Assembly (NCBI GenBank): GCA_044869275.1
Contig: JBIOXB010000185.1
Span: 1 to 40,568, forward strand
Direction: 5' to 3'
Source of the DNA: a bacterium
GTDB taxonomy: Bacteria > Zhuqueibacterota > Zhuqueibacteria > Zhuqueibacterales > Zhuqueibacteraceae
DNA: 40,568 nt
Shown: positions 1,417 to 40,411 of the stretch, one piece after another
Position numbering within the stretch: the first letter of the stretch is position 1
Layout: each line of letters starts with the position of its first letter
Notes under the pieces: model-generated
What the model was told of the DNA's origin: nothing
Database searches by the model: none
What the model saw: the letters and a program-made list of their open reading frames with translations, nothing else
Position numbers and translations under genes: made by a program

Positions 1417-1487
1417 CTGAGCTTGTCGAAGCCTGAGCTTGTCGAAGCCTGATTTTTGAACTAAGCACCCTTCGACAAGCTCAGGGT
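1417..1487. repeat. REP-like inverted repeat cluster (CTGAGCTTGTCGAAG x2 plus inverted CTTCGACAAGCTCAG)
   Basis: Direct copies at 1417-1431 and 1433-1447, and an exact reverse complement at 1470-1484 inside a GCACCCT...AGGGTGC stem. Confidence 0.8.
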
Positions 1488-1522
1488 GCGGCCTTTTGAT
1501 TTGCGAGACGAATATAACGTCT

Positions 1523-2725
1523 TTATTCGGCGAAATCGTCCTGGCGTGTACGGCTGGACATTTTTTTGAATTGGGAGGGCGTCATGCCGGCGTGTTTTTT
1601 GAACGCAGCATTGAAAACAGATTTGGAATTGAAGCCCGCTTCGTAAGCAATAGCCAAAATCGTCAAATACTTTTTTGCCGGATCGAGCAGCGCCTGTTGC
1701 GCCGCTTTGATACGATAACTGTTGACGAAATCGAAAAAATTCTGCCCTAAATTTTCGTTGAGGATTTGGGAGAGATGATTCGGAGGAATGGAGAGTTTCG
1801 TGGCGAGCTCCGGTAAAGTCAATTCTGCATTTTTGAAGGGCTGGTCTTTTTCCATGCAGTCTATCAGTTCCCGCGTATAGGCCTCGGCTTGTTCCGGCGC
1901 CAGGCCTGACCGTTCGTACTTTTTTGAATTCTGCATGACCGGTGGGACTACCTGGACTCCCGCGAAGACCTCCGGCTGTTGCAGTGCAAAGTAACCTATC
2001 GCATACACCAGCACAGACATAGTGTAGCCAAAGGCATAATCCAGCACGCCCCAGGGATCAATTTCAATGCGGAGGGCGTAAAGAATGAAAGAGACCAAAT
2101 AAAGCAGCCAGATGCCGGCGTTCCCGATGATCAAATTCCGCAGCCAATGCATGTTGATTTTTTCCAGATAAGAGAAGGAATTTTTGAGGCGCTGTGAATG
2201 CTTCTTGATCAACTGCACTGTCGCGCCAAAGTAAACGACGAAGTGCAGGCATTGCAATCCCCAAATGATCATAAAATCCATAGGCAAGCCTTGTGCCGCT
2301 GCGGTTTTGAAAAACGCGACCTTGTCATCGCCATTTTGCAGATAGAAAGGAAGTAAATATGCAGTGAAGGCTAGAAATGGGAGAAAATGAAGAAGCGGGA
2401 AAGTGTGAAGGCGGGCATCTTCCGGGGCTTCATGCCAACCCGGTCTCATCCCAGCAATCAAACATTTGACATAAAAGAAAAGTATCGGTCCCAAAAGCAA
2501 AGGGATCGTGAACGTTGATCCGATAAGGTGTGGAAGAACCGCATGGTATTTCCGCACGAGCTCCGGGGAGGCGATGATCAACACCGAAAGGATTAGAAAC
2601 GCTGCCAGAATGCGATTGGCGGTCCGGCCATGCTTTTTGTGCCGGAGCAGGAACGCGGCTAAAAACAATCCCTGCGTTGCCCCCAGCACCAGAATGATTC
2701 CCCAGAGATTCAGAGATGAGTCCAT
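1523..2725 (-). CDS. AraC-family transcriptional regulator with N-terminal multi-pass membrane sensor domain
   Basis: Several hydrophobic segments followed by an AraC HTH (LTLPELATKLSIPPNHLSQILN...FFDFVNSYRI...IAYEAGFNSKSVFNAAFKKHAGMTPSQF). Start moved to MDSSLN (2725) because the ORF-track extension is repeat-derived. Confidence 0.92.
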   Translation of the reverse strand: MDSSLNLWGIILVLGATQGLFLAAFLLRHKKHGRTANRILAAFLILSVLIIASPELVRKYHAVLPHLIGSTFTIPLLLGPILFFYVKCLIAGMRPGWHEAPEDARLHTFPLLHFLPFLAFTAYLLPFYLQNGDDKVAFFKTAAAQGLPMDFMIIWGLQCLHFVVYFGATVQLIKKHSQRLKNSFSYLEKINMHWLRNLIIGNAGIWLLYLVSFILYALRIEIDPWGVLDYAFGYTMSVLVYAIGYFALQQPEVFAGVQVVPPVMQNSKKYERSGLAPEQAEAYTRELIDCMEKDQPFKNAELTLPELATKLSIPPNHLSQILNENLGQNFFDFVNSYRIKAAQQALLDPAKKYLTILAIAYEAGFNSKSVFNAAFKKHAGMTPSQFKKMSSRTRQDDFAE

Positions 2726-2743
2726 ACTTCGATGCCTTTTCCT

Positions 2744-2819
2744 GCAGAGGGCATAGCGCATAGAGCATAGAGCATAGAGAGCACGCCATGCGCTCTGCGC
2801 CATGCCCTCCGCCCTCTGC
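2744..2819. repeat. Inverted heptamer-tandem hairpin (GCATAGA/GCAGAGG vs CCATGCG/CTCTGCG family)
   Basis: gcagagg gcatagc gcataga gcataga gcataga ... ccatgcg ctctgcg ccatgcc ctccgcc ctctgc; spans from the permease stop codon to the purine-rich RBS region of the AraC gene. Confidence 0.9.
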
Positions 2820-5260
2820 TATTCGTACCTCAACGCCTCCACCGGATTCCCCAGCGCCGCTTTGAGCGCTTGATAGCTGATGGTGAGCAAAGCAATGACC
2901 GCCGCAAGCGCGCCAGCCGCGATGAAAACCAGCCAGCCGATCTCGATGCGATAGGCAAAGCTTTGCAGCCATTTTTGCATGGCATAATAAGCCACAGGCG
3001 AGGCCAGCAACGTCGCCACCAGGACCAGCTTGGTGAAATCTTTCGACAGCAAGGCGATGATGCTGGCCACAGAAGCGCCAAGTACTTTGCGCACGCCGAT
3101 TTCTTTGGTGCGCTGCTCGGCCATAAAAGCCGACAATCCCAGCAAACCAATGCACGCGATCAAAATCGCAAGCGTGGCGGCCACACCGAAAATCTGCCCC
3201 ACGCGTTCGTCGCGTTGATACAAATTCTGCCACCACTCTCCGAGAAAATCAAGCTCAATGGGATTGACGCGGTCGAACTGTTCGTGCACTTTGGTGATGA
3301 ACGCGATGGTCTCCGGCACGTTCGCGGTGCTGATGCGCAGACTGAAATAATCGATGCCGTGCAGCGCGTGCCGGCCGCCTTTCGGCATCAAGCCCATGAC
3401 CAGTGGGCCGATTTGATCGTGCAAAGAGAGAAAGTGAAAATCTTTCACCACACCCACCACCTGCCCTTGGAATGGCCGGGCGGGCACGTGAATGAATTTG
3501 CCCAGCGGCGCGGCGCCGAAGAGCATGCGTGCGGCGGTTTCGTTGAGTAAAATAGCAGTGGAATCGGAGGCCAGCGCGCGCGAAAAATTTCTGCCGGCGA
3601 CGAGATCGACTTCATAGGTTTTCAAAAAGTCTTCGTCAATGCCGTTGAAAGACATGGTCTGGGTTTCGATATCCGGCGCGCCTTCTTTCACCACTTGAAT
3701 TTGGCGGAAGGATTTCCAATCACCGGGCACGCGCGAAGAAACCGTCACGCTGCGCACCGCGGCCTCGCGCAGGAATTCGGTTTTGACGGTGGTGAAATTG
3801 GCTTGCACATCATCGTGGTTGATGTCGATCACCACGAGTTGTTCCTGGTTGAAGCCAAGCTGTTTGTGGCGCACGTATTCCAATTGTCTGTAGACCACGA
3901 GCGTGGCGACGATCATAATGAGGGAAAGCGCGAATTGGGCTACCACCAAGCCGCGTCGCAAACGCGATGCCCTCGTTCCGGCACGCACGGCACCTTTCAT
4001 CACCGTGATCGGCTGGAATCTCGACAAGTAGAACGCCGGATAACTGCCGGAAATGAACCCGAGCAACAGCGCGATGGCAAGCAACCCCGCAACCACGGCC
4101 CAGCCGCTGGAGAAATCGAGCGCCAGCTTCTTGCCGGCGAGCGCGTTGAACCCTGGCAACGCCAGCTCGACGAGAACCAGCGCCACAATCAATGCAATAA
4201 AGGTGATGCCGAGCGATTCACTGAAGAATTGCCCGATCAATTGCCGCTGGTCCGCGCCGATGACTTTGCGCATGCCAACTTCTTTGGCGCGGTGCATGGC
4301 GCGGGCGGTAGCCAGATTCATATAATTAATGCAGGCGATCAATGCGATGAACGCGGCAATCAGCGCGAAAATGTAAACGTAGCCCAGTTCACCTTCGTTC
4401 TTATTTCTTTCGGCTGAAATATGCGCGGAATAAAAATGAATATCGCGGAGCGGCTGCAGATAGAGTGTCCTCTGCGCCGAGGTTTCCGGCCCGCGATATT
4501 TTTTGCTGAAATCGGCAAACTTGGTTTCCAGTCCGGCGCGTTGTTTGTCGCTGTCGAGCACCACGTAAGTCGCCGCCCCAAAGCCGCTGGGACTCCACGA
4601 TTGCAGCGCTTGTTGCATATCCGGGAAAGCGTCCAGGGTGGAAAGCGAAACCAGCATGCCGAAATCCAAATGAGAATTGTGGGGAATGTCGCGCAGCACT
4701 CCGGTTACGACGAAATCGCCTTTGCCGAATTCCGGAAAATCTTCAGCCTCGAGCTGTAGCGCTTTGCCGAGCGGATTCTCATTGCCGAAAAATCGCTGCG
4801 CCGTGGTCTCGGTCAAAACGACCGAACGCGGCGCCGCGAGTGCGGTTTGTGGATCGCCTTGTTGCAGGGGAAAATCGAAAATGTTGAAGAAACTCGGCTC
4901 TGAGAAAAAGTAATCACGAACAATGTGCCGGCCTTCACCTTGCTTGACGGTCAGCCGCCAGCCGATGAAAAAGCGCACGGCCTCGACGACTTCCGGGAAA
5001 TCATTCTTCAGAGCCGGCGCCAGCGGCGGCACGGTGAAAGCCGCGTGGAGTTCGCCTTCGTTGGTGCTGCGTTTTTCCACGATACGAAAAATGCGATCGG
5101 CTTTCGCATGAAAAGCATCGAAGCGCAATTCATCCTGCACGTGCAGCAGAATCAAAATGCAGCACGCCATGCCGATGGCCAGGCCGAAAATGTTGATGAA
5201 AGAATAGTTTTTGTGCTTGAGAAAATTTCTCAGTGCGATCTTGAGGTAGTTTTTGAGCAT
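2819..5260 (-). CDS. MacB/FtsX-like ABC transporter permease (duplicated-domain, ~800 aa), paralog 1
   Basis: MLKNYLKIALRN start, IACINYMNLATAR..RAKEVGMRKV, QRTKEIGVRKVLGAS, C-terminal NPVEALRYE. Start trimmed to 5260. Confidence 0.93.
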   Translation of the reverse strand: MLKNYLKIALRNFLKHKNYSFINIFGLAIGMACCILILLHVQDELRFDAFHAKADRIFRIVEKRSTNEGELHAAFTVPPLAPALKNDFPEVVEAVRFFIGWRLTVKQGEGRHIVRDYFFSEPSFFNIFDFPLQQGDPQTALAAPRSVVLTETTAQRFFGNENPLGKALQLEAEDFPEFGKGDFVVTGVLRDIPHNSHLDFGMLVSLSTLDAFPDMQQALQSWSPSGFGAATYVVLDSDKQRAGLETKFADFSKKYRGPETSAQRTLYLQPLRDIHFYSAHISAERNKNEGELGYVYIFALIAAFIALIACINYMNLATARAMHRAKEVGMRKVIGADQRQLIGQFFSESLGITFIALIVALVLVELALPGFNALAGKKLALDFSSGWAVVAGLLAIALLLGFISGSYPAFYLSRFQPITVMKGAVRAGTRASRLRRGLVVAQFALSLIMIVATLVVYRQLEYVRHKQLGFNQEQLVVIDINHDDVQANFTTVKTEFLREAAVRSVTVSSRVPGDWKSFRQIQVVKEGAPDIETQTMSFNGIDEDFLKTYEVDLVAGRNFSRALASDSTAILLNETAARMLFGAAPLGKFIHVPARPFQGQVVGVVKDFHFLSLHDQIGPLVMGLMPKGGRHALHGIDYFSLRISTANVPETIAFITKVHEQFDRVNPIELDFLGEWWQNLYQRDERVGQIFGVAATLAILIACIGLLGLSAFMAEQRTKEIGVRKVLGASVASIIALLSKDFTKLVLVATLLASPVAYYAMQKWLQSFAYRIEIGWLVFIAAGALAAVIALLTISYQALKAALGNPVEALRYE

Positions 5261-5270
5261 GGCTTTTTCC

Positions 5271-5780
5271 TTGGCAAAGCGCATGGAGCATGGCGCATAG
5301 TTGCAAAAGACAAAGCTCCAAGTGCAAGCGCATCGCAATTGATTAATCAGTTTTCAGGGTTCGCTTGAAATTCGTGATCCGGCGCGACAAATGCTCGAAT
5401 GCTTCGAGAAGGGCGCTTTCTGTTTTCTCGTCGAGCAGTTTTCTACGAGATAGAATGATCACTATGTTGGCGTTCTCGAACGTTGATCGCCTGGCAATAT
5501 CCAAGAAACGAGCAAATTCTTTAGCCGAAGGACCGCCCGAGCCTTCAGCGATATTGTTCGACATGCTCATGCCCGCGCTCCGTACCTGCTCCGCGAAGCG
5601 ATAGAGATGTCGCTGCTCGAGTTTGTCGGCTATGTCAAAGAGCTTGTCCCCCAGCTCAATGGCCATTTGCCAAATCTCAAGATCTTGGAATCTAAACTTT
5701 GCCATAATCACACCTCCCATTTGTGTTTATAATGTTTGCGCCATGCGCTTTGCACCATGCGCTCTGCACCATGCGCCATG
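5271..5780 (-). mobile_element. Putative cassette: complementary heptamer-repeat arms enclosing a four-helix-bundle gene
   Basis: Arm 5736-5780 (ccatgcg ctttgca ccatgcg ctctgca...) is complementary to arm 5274-5300 (gcaaagc gcatgga gcatggc gcatag). An empty homolog lies at 11025-11126. Mobility is inferred, not shown. Confidence 0.55.
5343..5705 (-). CDS. Four-helix-bundle protein (23S rRNA intervening-sequence protein / TIGR02436-like, Avd-related fold)
   Basis: MAKFRFQDLEIWQMAIEL...EQVRSAGMSMSNNIAEGSG...EFARFLDIARRSTFE matches the family signature (F.dL..Wq, Q.rraa.S...NIAEG, F.rfL.iAr.S..E); SD GGAGGTG upstream of ATG 5705. Confidence 0.92.
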   Translation of the reverse strand: MAKFRFQDLEIWQMAIELGDKLFDIADKLEQRHLYRFAEQVRSAGMSMSNNIAEGSGGPSAKEFARFLDIARRSTFENANIVIILSRRKLLDEKTESALLEAFEHLSRRITNFKRTLKTD

Positions 5781-8192
5781 CTACTCACACCGCAACGCCT
5801 CCACCGGGTTCGCCAACGCGGCTTTGATCGATTGAAAGCTCACTGTCAGCAATGCAATACCCAACGCTGCCGCACTTGCCGATACAAAGACCCAGGCGTC
5901 GAGAGGGGCGCGATACGCAAAGCCTTGCAGCCAGGTGTTCATGGCATACCACGCCGCGGGCCACGCGATAATATTCGCCAGCAATACGAGCTTCGCGAAA
6001 TCGCCGGACAACAGCGAAACGATGCTCGCCACCGAAGCGCCCAGCACTTTGCGAATGCCGATCTCTTTGGTGCGCCGCTCTGCGGAAAATGCGGAAAGTC
6101 CGAACAAGCCCAAACCCGCGAGCACAATCGCCATGATCGCGAAAGCGTTGGCCACTTGTGCCAGCCTGTGCTCGCCGCCGTAAAGCTGCTCGAGTTTGCG
6201 GTCGAGAAAAACGTATTCCAGCGGCCATTCCGGCGAGAATGTTTTCCACACACGCTCGAGTGCAGCCAAGCGCTCGGCGGGATTGCCCGCGGCGATTTTG
6301 ACCGCACAATAGTCGTTCCAGCCGCTGTACGTCACCACCAGCGGCTTGATTTCGTGATGCAGTGATTCGAAGTGAAAGTCCTGAATCACACCGACGACGT
6401 AACCGGATTTGCCGATTTGATTCGTGCCCGGTGCGAACAGCTCCATCTTTTTGCCGAGGGGATTGTCCTTCCAGCCCAACGTTTCCACGGCTTTTTCATT
6501 CAACAAAAAGGCCTCGGCCTGATCCGAAGGCGAAGTTCGAGAAATGCCACGCCCGCGTTTGATTTTGAGCCCGGCGGTTTCGAGAAAATCATAATCGACG
6601 AGCAGCAACGGCAGCATCGCGGGTTTGTCGAGCGAACCGCCTTCGGGAACGAAGCGGTACGCGAACACGCCCTGCCCCGGAATGTTCGAAGTGCCAGCCA
6701 CGCCCAGGATGCCGGAATCTTTCATCAGTTCACTGCGAAACGCCTCGAATTTCGCATTGATTTCGGGCCGCGCTTTGACGAACAATACGCGCTCTTTGTC
6801 AAATCCCAGTTCTTTCTCCTGCATGAAACGCATCTGGCGATGAATTGCGCCGATGCCGATGATCAAGATGATGGAAATGGCGAACTGCGCGACGACCAGT
6901 GCCTGGCGCAACGTTTCGCTGCCGCCCACTGCGCCCGGCGCTCTGTTGAAGATGCAGGCGGGATTGAAGCGAGACAGAAAAAACGCGGGATACAGGCCGG
7001 ACAAAAGTCCCACGCTTAAAGCCAGGCTCAAGAGCAGAAGAAAACCGGTCCCGCTGCCTAACTGGCTCAGAGACAGCGATCTCTCCGTCAGTTGGTTGAA
7101 CGCCGGCAAAAGCAGCTCGACGAGAACGATGGCCAGGAGCATCGCGGCCAGGCCGGCGATGATGGTCTCTCCCAGCATTTGACCGATCAATTGCGATCTC
7201 TCCGCGCCCGCCACTTTGCGCACGCCGACTTCTTTGACGCGATTGCCGGATTGCGCCGTCGAGAGATTGACGAAGTTGATGCACGCGATCAGGAGAATCA
7301 AAAACGCGGTGGCGGAGAAGATATACACGTACGTGATGTGGCTGTTCGGCTCGATTTCGTTGTCGAGGCGGGAGTGCAGATGGATATCCGCCAGGGGTTG
7401 CAGCCCGAGGGTGACGCCGGCTTTGATGCGGTCGGGAAAATACTTCGCGGCGAACGCCGGCAGTTTGTCCGCCACGCTTTGGGCGGCGGAGGGTTCGGAC
7501 AACAGAAGATAAGTCCAGGCGCCGGTCCAAAACCATTGCTTCTCGCGGCCGTTCGGGCCGTTCTGGTTCTCCCACAGGTTCAACTGAAATTGCAGCGGCG
7601 CCAGAAAATCAAATTTGAAATGCGTGTTGTTGGGTACATTCTTGACGACGCCCGTGACCTTTAGGCCGAACTGGCTGTTGTAGCGCAGCGTTTCCCCGAG
7701 TGGATCGGCCGCGCCGAAATATTTGCGCGCCATATCTTCGGAGAGAATCACGCTATTGGGCTCGCGCAGTGCCGTTTTTGCCTCGCCTTTGATTAAAGGA
7801 TAGTCGAACACGGCGAAGACGGAGGAATCGGCAAAGAAAAATCTTTCTTCAGTGAATTTGCGATCGCCGATCTCGAGCAGCGGGAAATTGTCCGTCTTAT
7901 AGAATCGCACCGCTTGTTCGACTTCGGGGAAATCGCGCGTAAACGCTGCTGCCGCCGGAAACGGAATCGAAGCTTCCTGGTACAAGACGCCGTTCAAGTC
8001 CAGCGTCACACGGACTCTGAAAATCCGCCCGGCGCGTGAGTGAAATTCATCATAGCTGATTTCGTGCAACACGTACAGCATGATCAAAATGCAGCATGCC
8101 AAGCCCGCGGCGAGGCCGGCGATGTTGATGAAAGAATAGGCGGCATTCTTCTTGAGATTCCGCAAAGCGATTTTGACGTAGTTTTTGAACAT
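5781..8192 (-). CDS. MacB/FtsX-like ABC transporter permease, paralog 2
   Basis: MFKNYVKIALRN...IACINFVNLSTA...RRTKEIGIRKVLGAS...NPVEALRCE. Confidence 0.93.
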   Translation of the reverse strand: MFKNYVKIALRNLKKNAAYSFINIAGLAAGLACCILIMLYVLHEISYDEFHSRAGRIFRVRVTLDLNGVLYQEASIPFPAAAAFTRDFPEVEQAVRFYKTDNFPLLEIGDRKFTEERFFFADSSVFAVFDYPLIKGEAKTALREPNSVILSEDMARKYFGAADPLGETLRYNSQFGLKVTGVVKNVPNNTHFKFDFLAPLQFQLNLWENQNGPNGREKQWFWTGAWTYLLLSEPSAAQSVADKLPAFAAKYFPDRIKAGVTLGLQPLADIHLHSRLDNEIEPNSHITYVYIFSATAFLILLIACINFVNLSTAQSGNRVKEVGVRKVAGAERSQLIGQMLGETIIAGLAAMLLAIVLVELLLPAFNQLTERSLSLSQLGSGTGFLLLLSLALSVGLLSGLYPAFFLSRFNPACIFNRAPGAVGGSETLRQALVVAQFAISIILIIGIGAIHRQMRFMQEKELGFDKERVLFVKARPEINAKFEAFRSELMKDSGILGVAGTSNIPGQGVFAYRFVPEGGSLDKPAMLPLLLVDYDFLETAGLKIKRGRGISRTSPSDQAEAFLLNEKAVETLGWKDNPLGKKMELFAPGTNQIGKSGYVVGVIQDFHFESLHHEIKPLVVTYSGWNDYCAVKIAAGNPAERLAALERVWKTFSPEWPLEYVFLDRKLEQLYGGEHRLAQVANAFAIMAIVLAGLGLFGLSAFSAERRTKEIGIRKVLGASVASIVSLLSGDFAKLVLLANIIAWPAAWYAMNTWLQGFAYRAPLDAWVFVSASAAALGIALLTVSFQSIKAALANPVEALRCE

Positions 8193-8209
8193 GGCTTTGC
8201 TCCATGAGT

Positions 8210-8241
8210 CAGTGATCAGTGTGCAGTAAACAGTGATCAGT
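8210..8241. repeat. Heptamer tandem repeat (CAGTGAT family); opposite arm degenerate
   Basis: cagtgat cagtgtg cagtaaa cagtgat cagt; same unit family as 16515-16586. Confidence 0.7.
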
Positions 8242-8271
8242 TTGTTATCGCAGGCTGTTTATCGGTCGCTT

Positions 8272-10650
8272 CTATTCATAACGCAACGTGGTGATAGGGT
8301 TTTTTGTCGCGGTCCTTATGGCTTGATAGCTGACCGCTGCAAACGCGATCAAAGAAGTCGTTAGGCCCGAGAGCAGAAATAGCGACAGGCCAGGCTCGAT
8401 CCGATACGCGTAGTCTTCCAGCCAAACAACTGCCAGGGCGTAGGCGATGGGCCACCCGATCACGTTTGCCAGCGCCACCAATTTCAGAAACTGCCGGGAC
8501 AGCAGCAGAATGATGCCGGGCACGGTGGCGCCGAGCACTTTACGGATGCCGACTTCTTTGGTTTTTTGTTCCACCAGCAACGAGGCCAGCCCAAAAAGCC
8601 CGAGGCAGGCGGTCAACAAGGCCAGCAGGGCGCCGGCGCCAATCAGCACGCTCCATTTTTCTTCGGCACGGTACAGATGATCGAAGTCCTCGTCCAGAAA
8701 TGAATAGGCAAATGTCTGCTCCGCAGCAAAGCGATCCCATACCGACTTGAGCTCCACGAGTGTCTGTTGCAGGTTGGCGGGAGACACTCGCATCAAAAGA
8801 TATGCAGCCGGTGTCTGCGGAAAGAGCACGAGCGGAGTGATTTTCTTGTGCAACGACTCGAAATGAAAATCTTTGATGACGCCGATGATGCGAGGGCGGC
8901 CCGAGGCGGTGCCGGCATCAAAAAGTGTTTTTCCCAGCGCTGCTTCCGGCGAGGCCCAGCCCATGGCACGAACTGCCTCCTCATTGATGAGGGCAACTTT
9001 TTTTGCGCCAAAATCCAGCGGCTGGGAGAAGTTTCTGCCCGCCGCAAGCTGGAGATCGAGCGTGGCAAGAAAATTTTCGTCCACCCAGTTCACTGCGGTC
9101 GTAAAAAATTGCTCCTCCGTGGAACCTTCCCAGCGCATGTGATCGCCGGCATGACCCTTGCCCGGCATGGCGTTGGCCCAGGCCACGCTTGCAACATTTG
9201 GCAGACGTAGAAACTCGGTGCGCAGCGCGCCGGGATTGCTGGTGATCGCGCCGTCCTTGACGCGCACGACGAGCACTTGTTCTTTTTGAAATCCCAATTT
9301 GGTGGTTTTCACATACTTGAGTTGGCTGTAAACCACCAGCGCACCGATGGCCATCACCGCTGCTGCGGAAAATTGCAGCACCACCAGCCCCTGGCGAATG
9401 CGAGAAAGTTTGACGCCTTTCTCCGAGGTTCCCTTCAGTATGGTCGCCGGCTGGAAACGGGAAACGAACAAAGCCGGATATGAACCGGCCGCCACACCCA
9501 GAACGATCGCCACTCCGAGTATGAGTACGACATGCCAGCCGCCTACAAATTCCAATACCGAAAGCTCTTTGCCGGAAAGAGTATTCACGAACGGCGTTGC
9601 CAGCTCTGCCAAGCCCAGGCTGAGCACGAGGGCGACAAAAACATAAACAAACGATTCACTCATGAACTGGAGAAAGAGCGATTTCCGGTGTGCGCCGGCT
9701 ACTTTGCGAATGCCGACCTCTTTTGCCCGGCTGGTGGATTGCGCTATCGAGAGATTGGTGTAATTGATGGCGGCGATGGCCAGAATGAGAAATGCAATGG
9801 CGGAGAGAATATAGACATACCGGATGTCGCTGTTGGCTTCGAATTCTGCCGAGATCTGTGAATGCAGATGGATATCGGTTAACGGCTGAAGCCGTAGCAC
9901 GGCTTTGCGATTGGGATCAATGCGCTCGGGAATGAACTTCGCAATTTTAGCATTCAAATCCGGTGCGGAAGCGGATTCTTTCAACAGTATGTAGGTTTTG
10001 AAGGCGTTCATGCCATAGCCGTTCAAAATCTGAGGCCCAAAGACGGAGGAGAGTGTCGAGAAAGAAACGATGAAATCAGGATGCAGATGCGAAGTATGCG
10101 GAACATCCGCGAGCACGCCGGCCACAGTAAGCTCGATCTCGGCATTGTAGCGCAGCTGCTTGCCGACCGGATTTTCCGCGCCGAAATATTTTCTTGCCGT
10201 GGTCTCTGTCAAGAGAATGGAGTTCGGTTTTTGCAACGCCGTCGCGCGGTCGCCGCGCACCAGGGGAAAAGAAAAGACAGACAGAAAAGCGGAATCTGCA
10301 AAAAACACTCGCTCCTCGATAAATCCCTGGTCGCCGTGCGCGAGCAGCGGCGCGAACCAATGCTTGAAAACACGGACAGATGCTTGGATTTCGGGGTAAT
10401 GTTCCGCCAGGGCTGGTCCAAGCGGAGCCGGGCCATTGGCGCTCTCGTCAAAACCCTCCAATTGAAACGTCACCCGAAAGATGCGTTCCGCCGCGGCGTG
10501 CATGCGATCATAGCGCAACTCGTCCTGGATATAGGCCGCAATCAAAAGGCAACAGGCCATCCCCACAGCCAGCCCAAGGACATTTAGCATGGAATAGCTT
10601 TTATGACGAGTAAAATGTCGTGCCGCGAGCTTGAGATGGCTTGATAGCAT
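8272..10650 (-). CDS. MacB/FtsX-like ABC transporter permease, paralog 3 (more divergent)
   Basis: MLSSHLKLAARH...IAAINYTNLSIA...QKTKEVGIRKVLGA...NPITTLRYE; SD GAGG upstream. Confidence 0.92.
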   Translation of the reverse strand: MLSSHLKLAARHFTRHKSYSMLNVLGLAVGMACCLLIAAYIQDELRYDRMHAAAERIFRVTFQLEGFDESANGPAPLGPALAEHYPEIQASVRVFKHWFAPLLAHGDQGFIEERVFFADSAFLSVFSFPLVRGDRATALQKPNSILLTETTARKYFGAENPVGKQLRYNAEIELTVAGVLADVPHTSHLHPDFIVSFSTLSSVFGPQILNGYGMNAFKTYILLKESASAPDLNAKIAKFIPERIDPNRKAVLRLQPLTDIHLHSQISAEFEANSDIRYVYILSAIAFLILAIAAINYTNLSIAQSTSRAKEVGIRKVAGAHRKSLFLQFMSESFVYVFVALVLSLGLAELATPFVNTLSGKELSVLEFVGGWHVVLILGVAIVLGVAAGSYPALFVSRFQPATILKGTSEKGVKLSRIRQGLVVLQFSAAAVMAIGALVVYSQLKYVKTTKLGFQKEQVLVVRVKDGAITSNPGALRTEFLRLPNVASVAWANAMPGKGHAGDHMRWEGSTEEQFFTTAVNWVDENFLATLDLQLAAGRNFSQPLDFGAKKVALINEEAVRAMGWASPEAALGKTLFDAGTASGRPRIIGVIKDFHFESLHKKITPLVLFPQTPAAYLLMRVSPANLQQTLVELKSVWDRFAAEQTFAYSFLDEDFDHLYRAEEKWSVLIGAGALLALLTACLGLFGLASLLVEQKTKEVGIRKVLGATVPGIILLLSRQFLKLVALANVIGWPIAYALAVVWLEDYAYRIEPGLSLFLLSGLTTSLIAFAAVSYQAIRTATKNPITTLRYE

Positions 10651-10686
10651 ACACGTACCTCGTTTGGTAATGCTGAAAATGTTGTG

Positions 10687-10755
10687 CGTAAGACGGCAAA
10701 CGTCAAACGTGAGACGTGAGACTTTTTACGTCTTACGTCTCACGTTTGACGTCTT
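10687..10755. repeat. Inverted heptamer hairpin (ACGTGAG/ACGTCAA family)
   Basis: Arms 10700-10722 and 10730-10752 are reverse complements at 22 of 23 positions, with a 7-nt loop. Confidence 0.9.
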
Positions 10756-10756
10756 G

Positions 10757-11026
10757 TCACTCGTACCGCAAACTCTCTACGGGATTTGCCACTGCCGCTT
10801 TGGCGGCCTGGAAGCTGACGGTCACAAACGCAATCAACAGGGCCGCGACGGTTGCGAGCAAAAAAGTCACGATGCCGAGATCGGTGCGATAGGCAAAATC
10901 TTCCAGCCACTTTCTCATGGCCACATAGGCGACCGGCCAGGCGATGAGGTTCGCCATCAACACCAGCTTGACAAATTCTTTGGAAAGCAATCCGATGATG
11001 CCCGCCACCGAGGCGCCCAGCACTTT
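10757..11026 (-). pseudogene. C-terminal 90-codon remnant of an ABC permease paralog
   Basis: KVLGASVAGIIGLLSKEFVKLV...ANPVESLRYE*; begins abruptly inside the conserved IRKVLGAS motif, fused directly to a repeat arm, with no native start. Confidence 0.88.
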
Positions 11027-11126
11027 GGCAAAGCGCAAAGAGCATGGCGCATAGCTTGTAAAAGACAAAGCGCCAAGTGCAAGCGCTGTTTATAAAACGC
11101 CATGCGCTTTGCCCTCTGCGCTATGC
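11025..11126. repeat. Empty copy of the four-helix-bundle cassette (heptamer hairpin with unique loop sequence)
   Basis: 11025-11086 matches 5271-5331 at 57/62 aligned positions and then continues directly into TGTTTATAA (matching 5724-5732) and the complementary arm. Confidence 0.88.
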
Positions 11127-13544
11127 TTATTCGTACCGCAACGCTTCCACCGGATTCGCCAGCGCGGCCTTGAGAGCATGGTAACTCACCGTCAATAGCG
11201 CAATCATCAGCGCCAGGCTGGCGGCGAGCAGGAACGCGCTGAGGCCCAGCTCGATGCGATAGGCAAAATTCTCCAGCCATCGCCTTATGGCATAGTAGGC
11301 CACGGGCCACGCCACGAGATTGGCAATCAGGACCAGTTTGACAAACTCCTGGGACAGGAGGGACACGATGCTGGGCACGTTTGCACCCAGGACTTTTCGA
11401 ATCCCAATCTCTTTCGTGCGCTGCTCGGTCGCGTAGGTTGCCAATCCCAGCAAGCCCAGGCACGCAATGAAAATGCCGAGACCGGAAAATGTGCCGAACA
11501 CTTTTCCCACGGTCTGTTCGGTGGCATAGCGCGCGCGCAATTCCTCGTCGAGAAAGAAATATATAAAAGGCTGTCCGCCGGTGAAGGACGCCCATTGGCG
11601 CTCCACGGCACGGATGATTTCCGGAAGGGCTCCTTGCACGCGCAGCAGGAGATAAGTGGCACCGCCCTGCGTCACCCGCAGCACCAGCGGCCGAATCGGT
11701 TGATGCAGTGATTCAAAGTGAAAATCTTTCAGTAAGCCGATGATCTCCATCGGCCGCATTTCCTTTTGCCCGAAAAATGCCGTGACTTTGCGCCCCACGG
11801 GATTTTCATAGCCCAGCAGCTTGGCCGCGGGGGCATTGATCAAAACAGCATGTGTCGAATCAGTGGTGAACTGTGAAGAAAAATTACGGCCCTCCTGCAA
11901 TGCAATCTTCAAAGTGGGAATGAATTCAAAATCCGTCCAGATGTGCCACAACAGCACCGGCTTGGAAGGGTCGCCGCCTTCGGGCAAAAAAGCTGAGTTG
12001 CCAATGTCTTTACCGGGAATGGTGTTGGCATAGGACGCCGAAAGGATGCCGGTGGTATTGAGCAGGGAGGTTTTGAAGCTGCGCGCTTGTTCCCCGCGCA
12101 GGAGCCAGGCATTATCCACCACCAGCACTTGTTCTTTGTCGAATCCGAGCGCCTTGTTTTGCACATAGGAGAGCTGCTGATGCACGATGATGGTTCCCAC
12201 CATCAACGCGATGGAGATGGTGAATTGGACGATCACCAAAGTGCTCCGCAACCAGCCACTGCGCATGCCGGTGCGCCATTCACCCTTCAGCACTTTCACT
12301 GGCTGAAAGGAGGAGAGCACGAATGCCGGATAGCTGCCGGCCAGCAGGCCGATGAACACGGAAAATAGCACGAGGCCGGGAATGAGCCGGAGGGCGCCAA
12401 AATCCGAAAGTGCCAGCTCTTTGCCGGTGAAGCTGTTGAAAGAAGGCAGTACCAGCTCGATCACACCAATGGTGATCAATATGGCCAGCACGCTGATCAG
12501 CATGGCTTCGCTCAAAAAAAGCTGCATCAGTTGTGCAGCGCGCGAGCCGAGCACTTTGCGCACACCGACTTCCTTCGCGCGCCGGGCCGAACGGGCGGTG
12601 CTGAGGTTCATGAAATTGATACAGGCGATGAGGAGAATGAAGGCGGCAATGAGCAGGAAAACGTAAACGTAAACGACGTTGCCATGGGGAGCGATATCGT
12701 TTTCAAGATGGGAGTGCAGATGAATGTCCGTCAGCGGTTGAAAAAGATAACGATAGCGCAATCCCGAGGCTTCCATTTCACGGAGCGAGGCGCCGAGCAC
12801 CTGCTGGAGCTGGGGATCCACGTACTTGGAGGTGATGGTTTGCAGCGTGGCTTCCGCTTGCTCGCGCGCGCTTCCGGCATTAAAGACGGCATACGTATAG
12901 AGATTGTTGCTGATCCAGACTTGGTCGTCGCCAAACTCGCGCGAATTCATGGAAACCAGGAAATCAAACTGCCAATGTGAAGTGGCCGGCAGTTTTTTGA
13001 CCACGCCGCTCACCGCATATTGCTCGCGTCCATCCATGAGCAGAGACTTGCCCAAAGGCGGTGACTCGCCAAAATACTTGCGCGCCATTTCATCGGTGAG
13101 GACGACGGTATGGGGTTTGGAGAGCGCGGTGCGCGCCTCGCCTGCCAGCATCGCAAACGTGAACACGTCAAAAATCGTCGAATCGGCGAAAAACAGTTTT
13201 TCTTCGTTGAAAGTTTTGTCTTCGTGGCGCACGGTGAAATTGCCCACGTGCCGAATGCGGGCCGCCGTTTCAATTCCCGGCAGCTCTTGCCGCAACGTCG
13301 CGGCCAGCGGTCCGCAGCTCGTGGCCGCTATCAAATCCTTGTCGTTGATGCGCGCATCCAGATACAAGCGGTAAGTGCGCTCCGCTTTTTCGTGAAACCG
13401 GTCATAATCGAGCTCGTTGCGCACGTACAATAAAATGAGCAAACAGCAGCTCATGCCGAGCACCAGCCCGGCAATGTTGATGGCGCTGTAGCCCTTTTGT
13501 TTCAGCAGATTTCTGAGGGCGATTTTGAGGTAGTTTTTGAGCAT
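11127..13544 (-). CDS. MacB/FtsX-like ABC transporter permease, paralog 4
   Basis: MLKNYLKIALRN...IACINFMNLSTAR..RAKEVGVRKV...QRTKEIGIRKVLGA...NPVEALRYE; SD AGGAG before ATG 13544. Confidence 0.93.
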   Translation of the reverse strand: MLKNYLKIALRNLLKQKGYSAINIAGLVLGMSCCLLILLYVRNELDYDRFHEKAERTYRLYLDARINDKDLIAATSCGPLAATLRQELPGIETAARIRHVGNFTVRHEDKTFNEEKLFFADSTIFDVFTFAMLAGEARTALSKPHTVVLTDEMARKYFGESPPLGKSLLMDGREQYAVSGVVKKLPATSHWQFDFLVSMNSREFGDDQVWISNNLYTYAVFNAGSAREQAEATLQTITSKYVDPQLQQVLGASLREMEASGLRYRYLFQPLTDIHLHSHLENDIAPHGNVVYVYVFLLIAAFILLIACINFMNLSTARSARRAKEVGVRKVLGSRAAQLMQLFLSEAMLISVLAILITIGVIELVLPSFNSFTGKELALSDFGALRLIPGLVLFSVFIGLLAGSYPAFVLSSFQPVKVLKGEWRTGMRSGWLRSTLVIVQFTISIALMVGTIIVHQQLSYVQNKALGFDKEQVLVVDNAWLLRGEQARSFKTSLLNTTGILSASYANTIPGKDIGNSAFLPEGGDPSKPVLLWHIWTDFEFIPTLKIALQEGRNFSSQFTTDSTHAVLINAPAAKLLGYENPVGRKVTAFFGQKEMRPMEIIGLLKDFHFESLHQPIRPLVLRVTQGGATYLLLRVQGALPEIIRAVERQWASFTGGQPFIYFFLDEELRARYATEQTVGKVFGTFSGLGIFIACLGLLGLATYATEQRTKEIGIRKVLGANVPSIVSLLSQEFVKLVLIANLVAWPVAYYAIRRWLENFAYRIELGLSAFLLAASLALMIALLTVSYHALKAALANPVEALRYE

Positions 13545-13556
13545 GGTTTTCTCCTG

Positions 13557-13626
13557 GCATAGCGCAAAGAGCATAGCGCATAGCACCATGCGCTATGCTC
13601 TTTGCGCTATGCGCCATGCGCTCTGC
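13557..13626. repeat. Inverted heptamer hairpin (GCATAGC family), perfect 25-bp stem
   Basis: 13557-13581 and 13588-13612 are exact reverse complements with loop agcacc; the element runs from the remnant stop codon to the SD of paralog 4. Confidence 0.92.
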
Positions 13627-13655
13627 TATTCGTACCGCAACGTCTCCACCGGATT
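13626..13655 (-). pseudogene. Nine-codon C-terminal scar of another ABC permease (NPVETLRYE*)
   Basis: The minus strand reads AAT CCG GTG GAG ACG TTG CGG TAC GAA TAG, matching the NPVEALRYE* terminus of the neighbouring paralogs; there is no permease sequence upstream. Confidence 0.8.
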
Positions 13656-13703
13656 TGGGCGAGCCTCTTCTCCTAAATGGCAGATTGCACCATTGCGGAA
13701 ATA

Positions 13704-13719
13704 TTCAAGAGTTATGCCA
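13704..13719 (-). promoter_or_regulatory. Candidate sigma-54 (-24/-12) promoter
   Basis: Minus strand TGGCATAACTCTTGAA vs consensus TGGCAC-N5-TTGC (correct spacing, GA at -12), followed downstream by an AGGAG SD. Confidence 0.55.
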
Positions 13720-13774
13720 GTATTGTTTATTCAAGCCTTAGAGATGAAATAATTGGGAGGCCGGTCTTGGGGAG

Positions 13775-13812
13775 TATCCGCTGACGGAACGGGCACTGTT
13801 CGCCAGGGGACA
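13775..13812. promoter_or_regulatory. Candidate tandem enhancer-binding-protein sites (UAS)
   Basis: Two imperfect palindromes, TATCCG-N4-CGGAAC (13775-13790) and TGTTCG-N4-GGGACA (13797-13812), 22 bp apart, centred about 90 and 110 bp upstream of the predicted sigma-54 start. Confidence 0.4.
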
Positions 13813-13935
13813 GCTACACTCAGGGTTCAGAGAGCCGGAATACAGTCAATTGCAAGTGAGGGACACGCCAAGCGCCGGATTGTCAAGCAAGCTGAGAACC
13901 GCGGATCTGCGGGCGGCGCTAACCAAAGGATTTTG

Positions 13936-13983
13936 AACACGGATGACGCGGAGAATACGGATTTTATTCGTGATTTATCCGCG
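13936..13983. repeat. Inverted nonamer hairpin (ACGCGGAT-type)
   Basis: aacacggat gacgcggag aatacggat ... attcgtgat ttatccgcg. Confidence 0.6.
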
Positions 13984-14045
13984 CTATGCTTTCGCCGGCA
14001 CGTCTCTACGCCGCCTTGAAACGACCCCAACGAGATGAGCCGTGC

Positions 14046-14074
14046 CGCTATGCGCTATGCCCTCTGCCCTAAGC
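14046..14074. repeat. Single arm of the GCATAGC heptamer family
   Basis: cgctatg cgctatg ccctctg ccctaag c, immediately after the paralog 5 stop; the partner arm is absent. Confidence 0.7.
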
Positions 14075-16498
14075 TCACTCATACCGCAACGCCTGCGCCG
14101 GATTGATGAGCGCGGCGCGCAAGGATTGGCTGAATACAGTGAGCACAGCAATGAAAAGTGCAATCACACTCGCGGCCAGCAGGGGCAGCGGTTCCATGTT
14201 GATGCGGTAAGCAAAGTTCTGCAGCCATTTCGACGCAGCATACCACGCCAGCGGCCAGGCCACGAGATTGGCCACTGCCACCCAGCGCACAAAATCCACC
14301 ACCAGCAACCGCACAATCACACTCGCCGAGGCGCCCACCACTTTGCGTACGCCGATTTCCTTCGTCCTTTGCACGGTGGCGTGGCTGGCCAAACCGAACA
14401 AACCCAAACAAGCAATTAGAATCGCCAGGCCGGAGAAAACATTGACGATGGTGCCGGTGTTGAGATCGCGGCGATAGAGCTTGGCAAATTCCTCATCCAG
14501 AAACTTGTAGCTGAACGGATAACTCGGATAAACTTTTTGCCAGACCTTTTCTGCCGTTTGCACGGCTTCTGAGATTCGCCCCGGTTGAACGCGTGCGGCG
14601 AGCAAATTGCCCGGCGCGCTGGCAATCGGGAAAATCACCACGGGCTCAATGTTCTGGTGCATCGCGGCAAAATGAAAATCTTTCACCACGCCGATGACGC
14701 GCGTGCCGACGGAATCATTCTGCCCGAAATACAATCGCCGGTTGAGCGGATCATTCCAGCCCAGCTTGCTGGCCGCAGTTTCGTTCATCATCACTGCCTC
14801 CACCGTATCCGTCGGCATTTCGCGGCTGAAATTTCTTCCCTTTGCGATTTGCATGCCGAGCGTGGGCATGGCTTCCGGACTGAGGGCAAGCGCGCTCCAA
14901 ATCCAAATGTCTTCATCGGAAACACCCTCGGGACGAACGCGCGTGCGGCCAAAAGTCCGGCCCGGCACGTTGCCCGCCTGCGCCGCGGAAATGAATGCGC
15001 TGTGCCGCATCAGTTCCTGGCGGAAAGTTTCCAAGCTCCGGCCCATGGCCTGATCGACCACGTCGAAAATCATCACCTGCTCGCGATTGTAACCCAAGTC
15101 TTTGTGTTGCACGTAGTGCAATTGCTTTTGAATGATGAGAGTGGCGCCGATCAACGCAATGGAAAGCGCGAATTGAAACACCACCAATCCAATGCGCAAG
15201 GCCGCGCCGCTTTTGCCGGAGCTAAAACTTCCTTTCAACACCGTGATGGGCTTGAAACCCGAGAGCACCACTGCAGGATATGAACCGGCGAGCAGACCCA
15301 CCAACAAAAGCAGCGCAAACAAGAACGCGAACAGCGCGCCGTTGTGTGTTAGTTTAAGAGAAAGAGAAGTTTGCGTTAATTGATTCAGTCCGGGCAACGC
15401 CAGAGCCGCCAGTGGAATGGCGAGCAGCAACGCCAGCAGAGTAATGAAAAACGATTCGCCCAGGAATTGTCCCATCAATTGCGATTGATACGAGCCCACG
15501 ACCTTGCGCAACCCGACTTCTTTGGCGCGGCCGGCGCTGCGCGCGGTGGAAAGATTCATGTAATTGACCGCGGCGATGATGAGAATGAGCAGGGCGATGG
15601 CCGCAAAAATGTACACGTTGTTGATATCGCCCTTGTTCGTCACCGCGTCGAAAATGACGTCGGTGGATTTGAGATGCACGTCCAATAACGGCTGCAACAC
15701 CACGTCAAAATTCGGCGAGACGTCGTTATCACGCGCTAGTTTGGTAAATTTTTCCGCCAGTCCTCCCGCAACGGCGCCGCCGGCGAGCCGGACATACGTC
15801 GGCATGGCAATGGCTTTCCAAGTCTCCGTGAAGACGGGCTGGTTGGAATTGGGCGGTTGACTGGCCTTGGCTTGCGAGGTAATGGTCGAAATGGCGCCCA
15901 GCGCATCAAATTCCAGATGCGTGTTGTCCGGCAAGTCCGCGAGAATGCCGGTGATTTGCAGCGCCGTGCCGTCGCCGTCCTTTACGGTCTTGCCTATCGG
16001 GTCCTCCTCGCCGAAGAGCTGTTTGGCCAATGAGGCGGTGAGCACAAGGCTGAACGGCTGTGCTAATGCCGTTGCCGGATCACCCTGCAACAACGGCCAA
16101 TCGAAAAAATCAAAAAAGTTCGCATCGGCAGAGCGCAATTGCTGGGCATAAATGGCCGGGCGATTCTCGCCCGGTCGAGACAACAGCGTTTGTCCGCCAA
16201 AGGTGAGCCGCAGTGCAGCTTCCACTTCGGGAAACGCGCCGGGCAGTGCCGGCCCCATCGCGGGCATGGAAATCCCGACGCGTTGATTGTGCGTGCCCAG
16301 CGCTTTGTCTATGGTCAGCACGCGATAAATGCGGCCGGCGTTGGCATGCATGCTTTCAAACGACAATTCGTTCTGAATGAAGAGCAGAATCAGAATGCAC
16401 GCCGCCATGCCGATCGCCAAGCCGGCGATGTTAATGAAGGAATAGCCTTTGTGCCGCAAAAGATTTCGAAACGCAATGATGAGATAATTTTTGAACAT
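14075..16498 (-). CDS. MacB/FtsX-like ABC transporter permease, paralog 5
   Basis: MFKNYLIIAFRN...IAAVNYMNLSTAR..RAKEVGLRKV...QRTKEIGVRKVVGAS...NPAQALRYE; GGAG SD favours ATG 16498. Confidence 0.93.
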   Translation of the reverse strand: MFKNYLIIAFRNLLRHKGYSFINIAGLAIGMAACILILLFIQNELSFESMHANAGRIYRVLTIDKALGTHNQRVGISMPAMGPALPGAFPEVEAALRLTFGGQTLLSRPGENRPAIYAQQLRSADANFFDFFDWPLLQGDPATALAQPFSLVLTASLAKQLFGEEDPIGKTVKDGDGTALQITGILADLPDNTHLEFDALGAISTITSQAKASQPPNSNQPVFTETWKAIAMPTYVRLAGGAVAGGLAEKFTKLARDNDVSPNFDVVLQPLLDVHLKSTDVIFDAVTNKGDINNVYIFAAIALLILIIAAVNYMNLSTARSAGRAKEVGLRKVVGSYQSQLMGQFLGESFFITLLALLLAIPLAALALPGLNQLTQTSLSLKLTHNGALFAFLFALLLLVGLLAGSYPAVVLSGFKPITVLKGSFSSGKSGAALRIGLVVFQFALSIALIGATLIIQKQLHYVQHKDLGYNREQVMIFDVVDQAMGRSLETFRQELMRHSAFISAAQAGNVPGRTFGRTRVRPEGVSDEDIWIWSALALSPEAMPTLGMQIAKGRNFSREMPTDTVEAVMMNETAASKLGWNDPLNRRLYFGQNDSVGTRVIGVVKDFHFAAMHQNIEPVVIFPIASAPGNLLAARVQPGRISEAVQTAEKVWQKVYPSYPFSYKFLDEEFAKLYRRDLNTGTIVNVFSGLAILIACLGLFGLASHATVQRTKEIGVRKVVGASASVIVRLLVVDFVRWVAVANLVAWPLAWYAASKWLQNFAYRINMEPLPLLAASVIALFIAVLTVFSQSLRAALINPAQALRYE

Positions 16499-16514
16499 TG
16501 AGGGCTCCAGCATG

Positions 16515-16586
16515 CAGTGACCAGTGTTCAGTGATCAGTATCCATTCCATGGAGGGCTGATGACTCATCACCATGTTCCGGTCACT
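16515..16586. repeat. Heptamer repeat element (CAGTGAT family) with degenerate inverted arm
   Basis: cagtgac cagtgtt cagtgat cagtatc ... ctgatga ctcatca ... ccggtca ct. Confidence 0.65.
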
Positions 16587-19557: not shown

Positions 19558-19610
19558 TTACACATTACACGTTACACGAATATCGTGTATCGTGTAAAGT
19601 GTAACGTGTG
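19558..19610. repeat. Inverted heptamer hairpin (TTACACG/CGTGTAA family)
   Basis: ttacaca ttacacg ttacacg aatat cgtgtat cgtgtaa agtgtaa cgtgtg. Confidence 0.88.
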
Positions 19611-24192: not shown

Positions 24193-24268
24193 GAAATTCA
24201 AAGTCCAAAGCACAAAACTCAAAACTCAAAGTTACTTTTGGATTTTGTGCTTTGACTTTTGGGTTTCC
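24193..24268. repeat. Inverted heptamer hairpin (CAAAACT/CAAAGCA vs TTTTGTG type)
   Basis: caaagtc caaagca caaaact caaaact caaag ttac ttttgga ttttgtg ctttgac ttttggg; lies in the leader of the acylase gene. Confidence 0.85.
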
Positions 24269-30727: not shown

Positions 30728-30769
30728 TTTACACGTTACACCTTACACGTTACACGTGTAAAGTGTAAA
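30728..30769. repeat. Inverted heptamer hairpin (TTACACG family)
   Basis: ttacacg ttacacc ttacacg ttaca cgtgtaa agtgtaa; same unit as 19558-19610. Confidence 0.85.
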
Positions 30770-30802
30770 TAGGCGTTTAGAGCACGTCTTTTCATGCTCG
30801 CC

Positions 30803-31550: not shown

Positions 31551-31555
31551 CTCGT

Positions 31556-38618: not shown

Positions 38619-40411
<1,793 letters not shown>

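What the first reader, a model, noticed from the sequence alone, without database searches (positions are those of the whole stretch)
5271..11126. Filled and empty alleles of a hairpin cassette: four-helix-bundle gene precisely present or absent in the loop
Seen: the spacer between permeases 1 and 2 is [heptamer arm]-unique 30-nt linker (AAAAGACAAAGCTCCAAGTGCAAGCGC)-four-helix-bundle gene-TGTTTATAA-[complementary heptamer arm]. The spacer at 11025-11126 has the same arm and linker (57/62 identical), then runs straight into TGTTTATAA and the other arm. The only large difference is 392 bp (5332-5723) carrying the SD, ORF and stop, with no target duplication at the junction (11086/11087). Known: this protein family was first found in excised 23S rRNA intervening sequences and shares a fold with the Avd protein of diversity-generating retroelements; its function outside rRNA is unknown. 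Inference: the gene is cargo of a mobile or excisable hairpin element (an mRNA-level IVS, or an autonomous/non-autonomous pair), and the protein may recognise the repeat stem.
Basis: partly seen in the sequence, partly recalled or inferred. Interest (0 to 1): 0.88.

Follow-up and report, generated by a model that had tools for sequence, protein, structure and literature searches.

The report
Repeat-armed gene cassette and decayed copies
The "empty" copy is not a clean excision but one of several randomly deleted leftovers of a small gene cassette whose 7-base repeat arms match the protein's subfamily across many bacterial phyla, which suggests the protein recognises its own repeats.

Summary
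The sequence observation holds (57/62 identity, 392 bp missing) and is not an assembly collapse. The reading 'precise filled/empty alleles' fails. The two spacers are paralogues. Three more derivatives in this genome and three in relatives have scattered breakpoints, several at 3-7 nt microhomologies. The 'unique linker' is decayed arm repeat. The empty copy also abuts a second deletion that removed most of a permease gene.

What is real is a cassette: heptamer arm, four-helix-bundle gene (TIGR02436/PF05635), complementary arm, starting at an upstream stop codon. Its GCATAGC-type word tracks the protein clade: 77 of 78 clade loci from 11 labelled phyla carry it, against 0 of 97 other family members. 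Gene copies group by genome, not by array position, so cassettes are copied between spacers and then decay to short hairpins (43 here, one intact gene).

Best model: an enzyme-less selfish cassette whose Avd-like protein reads its own word. Binding and the route of spread are inferred, not shown. This scan noted the cassette layout on other DNA before (121 notes) and the clade-specific word once. Eight paper searches found no description.

The parts
5735..5781 (-). 5' arm of the filled cassette: six GCA(T/G/A)(A/G)G(C/T) heptamers plus a partial one; its first G is the last base of the upstream permease's TAG
   Evidence: sequence; stop-codon overlap tabulated
5724..5734 (-). AT-rich leader kept in the filled copy, the empty copy and the C129 derivative
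5713..5718 (-). Shine-Dalgarno GGGAGG of the four-helix-bundle gene
   Evidence: sequence; similar motif in 9 filled homologues
5343..5705 (-). Four-helix-bundle gene, 120 aa, FRFQDLEIW clade of TIGR02436/PF05635; intact, basic (pI 9.1)
   Evidence: AF2 pLDDT 95.8; Foldseek Xcc0516 TM 0.87, Avd TM 0.75
5301..5331 (-). 'Linker': degenerate inner extension of the 3' arm
   Evidence: phase-locked word score, P=0.004
5271..5300 (-). 3' arm (complementary heptamers); its outer end overlaps the AAGGA RBS (5268-5272) of permease 2819-5260
11025..11126 (-). Empty copy E1: 5' arm 11098-11126, leader 11087-11097, deletion junction 11086/11087, degenerate words 11056-11086, 3' arm 11025-11054
10757..11027 (-). 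Permease stump (last 90 codons) fused to the E1 arm by a second deletion; the orthologue in G001 is intact (82% nt)
2819..5260 (-). ABC permease downstream of the filled cassette; its G001 orthologue (89% aa) is preceded by a 3' remnant of the same gene
5781..8192 (-). ABC permease (MacB_PCD/FtsX, ADOP-like) upstream of the filled cassette
11127..13544 (-). ABC permease upstream of E1; a distant paralogue of 5781-8192 (neither is among the other's four best hits; those of 5781-8192 are 45-47% aa)
2744..2819 (.). Short-loop gene-less hairpin of the same word family at a permease stop
13557..13626 (.). Short-loop gene-less hairpin of the same word family
38619..38732 (.). Same word family at a housekeeping junction outside the permease array
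8207..8242 (.). Spacer hairpin of another word family (TCAGTGA), like the flanks of the family member on C177
10689..10756 (.). Spacer hairpin of a third word family (ACGTGAG), like the flanks of the family member at C98:9272

Best explanation
The filled spacer is one copy of a minimal selfish cassette: [heptamer words]-SD-four-helix-bundle ORF-[complementary words], inserted in sense at operon junctions, with the 5' arm starting in or at the upstream stop codon. Cassettes get copied to new junctions. In these permease arrays, host recombination between the conserved gene ends and shared arm words is enough to do that. The loop is then lost stepwise by ordinary, often microhomology-mediated deletions, leaving short hairpins. 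The 'empty' copy is one such decay intermediate, not a programmed excision product (shown by comparison; ~0.85). Each protein clade keeps its own word (shown as a correlation). The likely reason is that the Avd-like, probably pentameric, basic protein binds its own word array in RNA or single-stranded DNA, about one word per subunit crevice, and that this binding protects or helps copy the cassette (inferred; ~0.55). The enzyme that moves it between unrelated junctions and phyla is not encoded in the cassette and is unidentified.
For: Decay, in filled-copy coordinates: E1 lost 5332-5723. C31 lost ~5316-5755 at TGGC(G/A)C. C129 lost 5355-5723 and 5301-5335. C179 lost 5471-5688 at CCAA plus two more pieces. 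G001's orthologous spacer keeps only the last ~20 codons. G002 lost codons 5-59 at TTC.GAT. G004 keeps scraps. G009 has a frameshift and G013 an in-frame stop. Copying: 9 genes group by genome; AU tests reject both by-position clades (p 1e-31 and 4e-42). Two G016 copies are 94% identical in front of permeases 40% identical. Spacer word class follows neither the upstream orthologue (26 of 127 pairs) nor the downstream one (18 of 65); random is 19%. Word-clade link: 77 of 78 usable clade loci carry the word and 54 of 78 are enclosed, against 0.05% of shuffles and 0 of 345 distant windows; 47 downstream neighbour families among 73 loci. Of 98 other family loci only 1 carries it, and that one is a clade member. 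Among the others, nearest-neighbour word similarity is 0.30 against a null of 0.046 (max 0.104 in 2000 permutations). Purifying selection: 19 synonymous differences to 2 amino-acid changes, and 31 to 2. Fold like Xcc0516 and Avd. The Avd pentamer binds a stem-loop with flipped bases in crevices between protomers (bioRxiv 2023.10.23.563531, section 8).
Against: No binding or transposition is shown. There is no target duplication and no enzyme in the cassette, and none of the genome's three RTs or six Y1 transposase hits lies beside it. Co-inheritance of gene and arms as one DNA unit could give the word-clade link without any recognition. No orthologous junction free of arms was found, so a pre-insertion site is not shown. 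E1 and the C129 copy share their 5' breakpoint within 0-5 nt, and E1's junction has no microhomology, which leaves some room for a preferred break; one shared ancestral deletion also explains it. Arrays occur in 19 of 133 genomes without a detected intact clade gene, so the protein is not needed to keep them. The word pattern was written after viewing the flanks. Related loci are not independent.
Confidence: 0.6

Rival explanations
1. Host-serving regulator. The protein is a ring-shaped RNA-binding factor that reads its word arrays at dozens of operon junctions and tunes translational coupling, termination or processing. Gene-less hairpins are its target sites; arms around its own gene give autoregulation.
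For: 43 short hairpins of this word against one intact gene; 24 of 43 lie within 12 nt of a stop (random 7%). Arms often end at the next RBS. Purifying selection. A translational role was proposed for TAACTGA repeats (PMC4679880 abstract).
Against: The gene is often broken or lost while arrays stay. It is found in only 12 of 145 genomes of the phylum yet at 57-74% identity in other phyla. Word class at orthologous spacers changes freely.
Confidence: 0.15
2. mRNA-level intervening sequence. The arms form an RNase III stem, the loop RNA with the ORF is cut out as in 23S rRNA, and the element persists as a tolerated parasite. The protein need not read the word.
For: Same protein family and stem-loop-ORF anatomy as the Coxiella IVS, which RNase III excises and whose ORF decays (PMC4990558 passages). 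The stem folds. RNase III is in 27 of 29 genomes of the order.
Against: Cleavage without religation would split a polycistronic mRNA (inference). This does not explain clade-specific words or copying. RNase III is missing from this 94%-complete assembly, probably an assembly gap. It can hold alongside the best explanation.
Confidence: 0.15
3. One reading: the 392-bp loop is precisely excised or inserted at a fixed site, giving filled and empty forms.
For: Clean junction without microhomology. Its right end lies near the inner edge of the degenerate arm. The 5' breakpoint is shared with the C129 copy. Orthologous presence/absence exists.
Against: Six other derivatives have other endpoints. The junction is unique in 19 genomes. 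No excision joint is listed in DNA contigs. An adjacent unrelated deletion truncates a permease. Loops of the 43 short hairpins differ in length and sequence.
Confidence: 0.06
4. Neutral passenger. Gene and arms are an old unit shuffled only by duplication and conversion of neighbouring genes, with no activity of its own.
For: Within the permease arrays, conserved gene ends (mean 74% identity in the last 60 nt) suffice for exchange. Some junctions show vertical retention.
Against: 47 different downstream neighbour families and 11 labelled phyla. Purifying selection on the ORF.
Confidence: 0.04

Closest known systems
ORF-bearing 23S rRNA intervening sequences (S23p; Coxiella burnetii, PMC4990558; Leptospira cited there)
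   Same: Same protein family (PF05635/TIGR02436) in the loop of a stem formed by terminal inverted repeats; sporadic distribution; ORF prone to decay.
   Different: Sits at mRNA operon junctions, not in rRNA. Arms are tandem heptamers of variable number that start at a stop codon. Dozens of gene-less relics. RNase III excision untested.
Avd of diversity-generating retroelements (PDB 4dwl; bioRxiv 2023.10.23.563531)
   Same: Four-helix-bundle fold (TM 0.75/0.83, 9% identity, E 0.41); basic; Avd is a pentamer that binds an RNA stem-loop base-specifically.
   Different: No RT, template or variable repeat beside the gene. The genome's own Avd-RT pair is elsewhere (C184; labels from my reading of the sequences).
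Xcc0516 (2gsc) and BT_0352 (2rld), structural-genomics members of the family
   Same: Best sequence and fold matches (E 3e-8; TM 0.87 and ~0.8); five chains per entry.
   Different: No function or ligand assigned in the entry titles seen.
Intergenic heptamer repeats (TAACTGA in Beggiatoaceae, PMC4679880; cyanobacterial STRR, recalled)
   Same: Short runs of a 7-mer at gene junctions, patchy across phyla, mechanism unknown.
   Different: Described as direct repeats. That paper's main text has 0 occurrences of 'helix bundle', 'S23'. Here the repeats are paired arms tied to a protein clade.
MITEs and REP/RAYT elements (recalled)
   Same: Many short palindromic intergenic copies and few gene-bearing ones.
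   Different: The gene is not a transposase; no target duplication; no fixed outer ends; loops are heterogeneous deletion products.

Membership tests
PF05635/TIGR02436 four-helix-bundle proteins | Profile match above the curated cut-off | tested here: met
   TIGR02436 80.8 bits vs 24; PF05635 85.7 vs 33.8
PF05635/TIGR02436 four-helix-bundle proteins | Four-helix-bundle fold like Xcc0516 | tested here: met
   AF2 pLDDT 95.8, four long helices; TM 0.87 to 2gsc
PF05635/TIGR02436 four-helix-bundle proteins | Homopentamer | not tested
   Inferred from homologues (PMC4990558 passage); no complex job sent
23S rRNA intervening sequence | Located inside an rRNA gene | tested here: not met
   Lies between two permease genes. 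No TIGR02436 hit on C223, which holds rRNA motifs
23S rRNA intervening sequence | Terminal inverted repeats forming a stem around the ORF | tested here: met
23S rRNA intervening sequence | Excised from RNA by RNase III | not testable with these tools
   No RNA run listed; rnc in 27 of 29 genomes, not in this assembly
Diversity-generating retroelement (Avd) | Adjacent RT and template/variable repeat pair | tested here: not met
   No RT ORF beside the gene; RVT_1 hits are on C154, C184, C137
IS/MITE autonomous-nonautonomous pair | Transposase encoded by the filled element | tested here: not met
   The only ORF is PF05635
IS/MITE autonomous-nonautonomous pair | Fixed ends and target duplication | tested here: not met
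   Arm length varies (longest runs 1-14 words, mode 4); inner edge only weakly conserved (CGT in 11 of 65 and 13 of 67); no duplication seen
Precisely excised element (site-specific) | Recurrent identical empty junction | tested here: not met
Known structured RNA (Rfam) | Match at gathering score | tested here: not met
   Only 6 sub-threshold miRNA hairpin matches in 2500-16600

The most novel reading that the evidence does not exclude
These cassettes are a class of enzyme-less mobile elements with a recognition code. Each four-helix-bundle clade binds its own 7- or 8-base word, and with a host or trans-acting enzyme the complex is copied into stop-codon junctions. That would make these proteins the source and readers of many unexplained intergenic heptamer repeats of bacteria, and the likely ancestral stock of DGR Avd and of ORF-bearing rRNA IVSs.
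Probability: 0.35. Interest if true: 0.88.

Novelty: new variant of a known kind. Interest (0 to 1): 0.6.

Why it matters
The specific claim (clean excision) is ordinary decay. The larger pattern gives a direct test for two old unknowns: what PF05635 proteins do outside rRNA, and where intergenic heptamer arrays come from. The word-clade match (77 of 78 against 0 of 97) names the predicted ligand for a given protein, so one binding assay with swapped words can decide it. A natural set of small rings, each reading a different short repeat, would also be useful as orthogonal RNA-binding parts.

Tried and rejected
Precise excision: rejected. Assembly collapse: rejected. Linker as a unique recognition site: rejected, it is decayed arm. 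Arm words enriched for stop codons, which would explain periods 7 and 8: not seen (30 of 60 against 47% shuffled). Palindromic 4-mer core in the words: not seen (21 of 60 against 32%). A fixed inner arm boundary: weak. Profile scan of 214 spacers for gene remnants at score 17 was noisy (43 of 214 reversed controls hit); only segments of 30 or more, or collinear ones confirmed by alignment, were used. Expression: no RNA holder listed, which is no evidence either way. Rfam: nothing at gathering score. The G010 Rieske junction did not print, so it is not counted. No complex prediction was sent. Paper searches found no paper linking this family to heptamer arms; most subscription papers are outside that library. 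PMC5524665 (passages) was irrelevant. No supplements were read; the supplementary tables of PMC4679880 list ORFs beside repeats and could include such genes.
Full report
Observation. The window is contig C185 of a 6.67 Mb, 94%-complete genome. Some near homologues come from records labelled candidate division KSB1, so that placement is an inference. A minus-strand array of ABC permeases fills 2819-16498. The spacer 5261-5780 holds a TIGR02436/PF05635 gene (5343-5705) between complementary heptamer arms. The spacer 11025-11126 matches it at 57/62 and lacks 5332-5723. Contigs of the probable source run match 2944-6058 and 6036-11156 exactly, and low-depth contigs of a second sample bridge both junctions of the empty copy, so it is real. 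Three things were missed. The empty copy is fused through a shared CAA to the last 90 codons of a permease that is intact in G001. The 'linker' is degenerate arm repeat. The two spacers flank different, distant paralogues.

Is the loss precise? No. I extracted the DNA after 214 permease 3' ends from this genome and fetched parts of 7 relatives; 140 had a next permease within 1 kb and 104 of those spacers were under 150 nt. This genome has three more derivatives of the same cassette. In filled-copy coordinates, C31 lost ~5316-5755 at a 6-nt microhomology. C129 kept the last codons and lost 5355-5723 and 5301-5335. C179 kept the SD, about 7 codons and an internal scrap, joined at CCAA. In relatives, the spacer before the 89% orthologue of permease 2819-5260 keeps only the last ~20 codons (G001). 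G002 has an internal deletion of codons 5-59 at a 6-of-7 microhomology, G004 has scraps, G009 a frameshift and G013 an in-frame stop. The E1 junction was not found again in 19 family genomes. Against my reading: E1 shows no microhomology and shares its 5' breakpoint with C129 within 0-5 nt; a common ancestral deletion, trimmed further, explains this. The end state is a short hairpin: 43 arm pairs with loops up to 100 nt against 1 in the reversed genome (a few look like chance matches in coding DNA), 24 of them within 12 nt of a stop codon (random 7%), for one intact gene.

Does the cassette move? Yes, at least between spacers. One junction with both neighbours orthologous (84% and 90% aa) is filled in G001 and is an 83-nt hairpin here; G004, G010 and G009 carry the gene before the same downstream orthologue. 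At a Rieske/cytochrome b junction, G007 and G013 are filled, while G004 and G002 have no gene and different words (gene names are my reading). A tree of 9 intact genes groups copies by genome and rejects both by-position clades. Two G016 copies are 94% identical in front of permeases 40% identical. Spacer word class follows neither neighbour. When a GCATAGC arm starts at the stop, the stop is TAG in 32 of 55 cases against 19 of 159 otherwise, and in 30 of the 55 the arm's first G is the stop's last base. Conserved permease ends (mean 74% identity in the last 60 nt) would let host recombination do this within the arrays. It cannot explain the 47 neighbour families elsewhere.

The word follows the protein. 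The 80 best of 202 related loci (57-89% identity; 60 labelled with 11 phyla, 20 unlabelled) form one side of a branch (support 86, quick tree with long outgroups). After dropping 2 loci with short or masked flanks, 77 of 78 have tandem GCATAGC-type words within 130 nt, 54 in enclosing orientation, against 0.05% of shuffles and 0 of 345 distant window pairs. As a control I took 98 other family loci: 8 from this genome and 90 of 637 matches in 145 genomes of the phylum, chosen from the top of the list. One carries the word, and it is a clade member. Among 94 of them, word similarity rises from 0.03 below 50% protein identity to 0.43 at 70-80% (20 pairs), and nearest neighbours share words far above permutation. 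Within this one genome, different family members have different words, so the host does not set the word. The genome holds 685 period-7/8 arrays against 19-53 at periods 5, 10 and 11. Strict arrays occur in 11 of 12 genomes with an intact clade gene (some being the cassette's own arms) and in 19 of 133 without. Caveats: the pattern was written after seeing the flanks, and kin are not independent.

Mechanism. Shown: anatomy, copying, scattered decay, word-clade correlation, purifying selection, and fold. From the literature: the Coxiella IVS is cut by RNase III in a 28-bp stem and its ORF decays (PMC4990558, abstract part and passages). Avd is a basic pentamer, all five protomers contact one stem-loop, and flipped bases enter crevices between them (bioRxiv 2023.10.23.563531, passages and section 8). 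Inferred: the protein is a pentamer that reads its word; the modal arm run of 4 words loosely fits one word per crevice, as TRAP reads spaced triplets (recalled). That binding would favour survival or copying of the cassette. Unknown: the moving enzyme. No RT or Y1 transposase lies beside the gene.

Known or new. The protein is a member of PF05635. The element works like an ORF-bearing IVS in anatomy but is not one by location; it is not a DGR, IS or MITE by the features tested. Heptamer arrays are in print as unexplained (PMC4679880, abstract, outline and passages), without this gene link in its main text. Eight searches found no description in the held library. This scan has noted the layout in at least 114 genomes, the clade-specific word once (seen after my) and a similar decayed copy once. 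Claims on the orthologous filled junction, the 3' remnant, the intact orthologue of the stump and part of the gene tree rest on G001, an unpublished genome. The G016, G004, G010, G007, G013 and G002 results and the 80-locus test do not depend on it.

Verdict. Observation partly confirmed; precise excision not supported; the cassette and its clade-specific word are real and directly testable. Interest 0.6.

Noticed in passing
window 2819-16498; G000 C129, C152, C173, C179, C198; G016 C280, C67: Very large tandem families of MacB/FtsX permeases (41 3' ends in this genome, 75 in the fetched parts of G016). Order is shuffled between relatives (2 of 6 testable G000-G001 adjacencies kept), with hairpin spacers and many 3' stumps, somewhat like a cassette array.
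   Followed up: partly
window about 13627-13665 (-): Tiny permease 3' remnant (about ten codons and the stop) before the hairpin at 13557-13626; similar remnants in other spacers.
   Followed up: no
G000 C235:3701, C113:9461, C211:92981, C139:3919, C154:8720: GxxExxY (TIGR04256) genes have their own inverted arms with longer, ~9-10-base words: a parallel cassette class.
   Followed up: partly
G000 C184:4179-6051; C154:39276-41957; C137:2638-3597: Three RTs: Avd plus RT (DGR-like), RT-cas1-cas2, and a short retron-like RT. Labels are from my reading of the sequences, not from a scan. The RT-cas junctions carry word-array hairpins.
   Followed up: no
window 19584-19609, 24193-24267, 30731-30770, 31436-31563, 35553-35590, 16515-16545: Arrays of other word families at housekeeping junctions, several matching flanks of other four-helix-bundle genes of this genome.
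   Followed up: partly
window 1427-1490; G001 C191 spacer after 25019: Longer REP-like palindromes of another kind; one sits inside a heptamer arm.
   Followed up: no
window ORFs 1523-2803, 11127-13589, 37756-38664: Mechanical ORF calls start inside arm words, giving false repeat-coded N-termini, an annotation trap.
   Followed up: no
G000 C179 spacer after 11929; G004, G010, G017 arrays: Small unnamed ORFs lie between or after hairpins inside permease arrays.
   Followed up: no
G000 whole assembly: No RNase III gene found, though 27 of 29 genomes of the order have one; probably an assembly gap.
   Followed up: partly
G085, G086, G087: Many strict GCATAGC-type arrays, including one long tract on G087 C200, without a detected intact clade gene (84-96% complete).
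   Followed up: no
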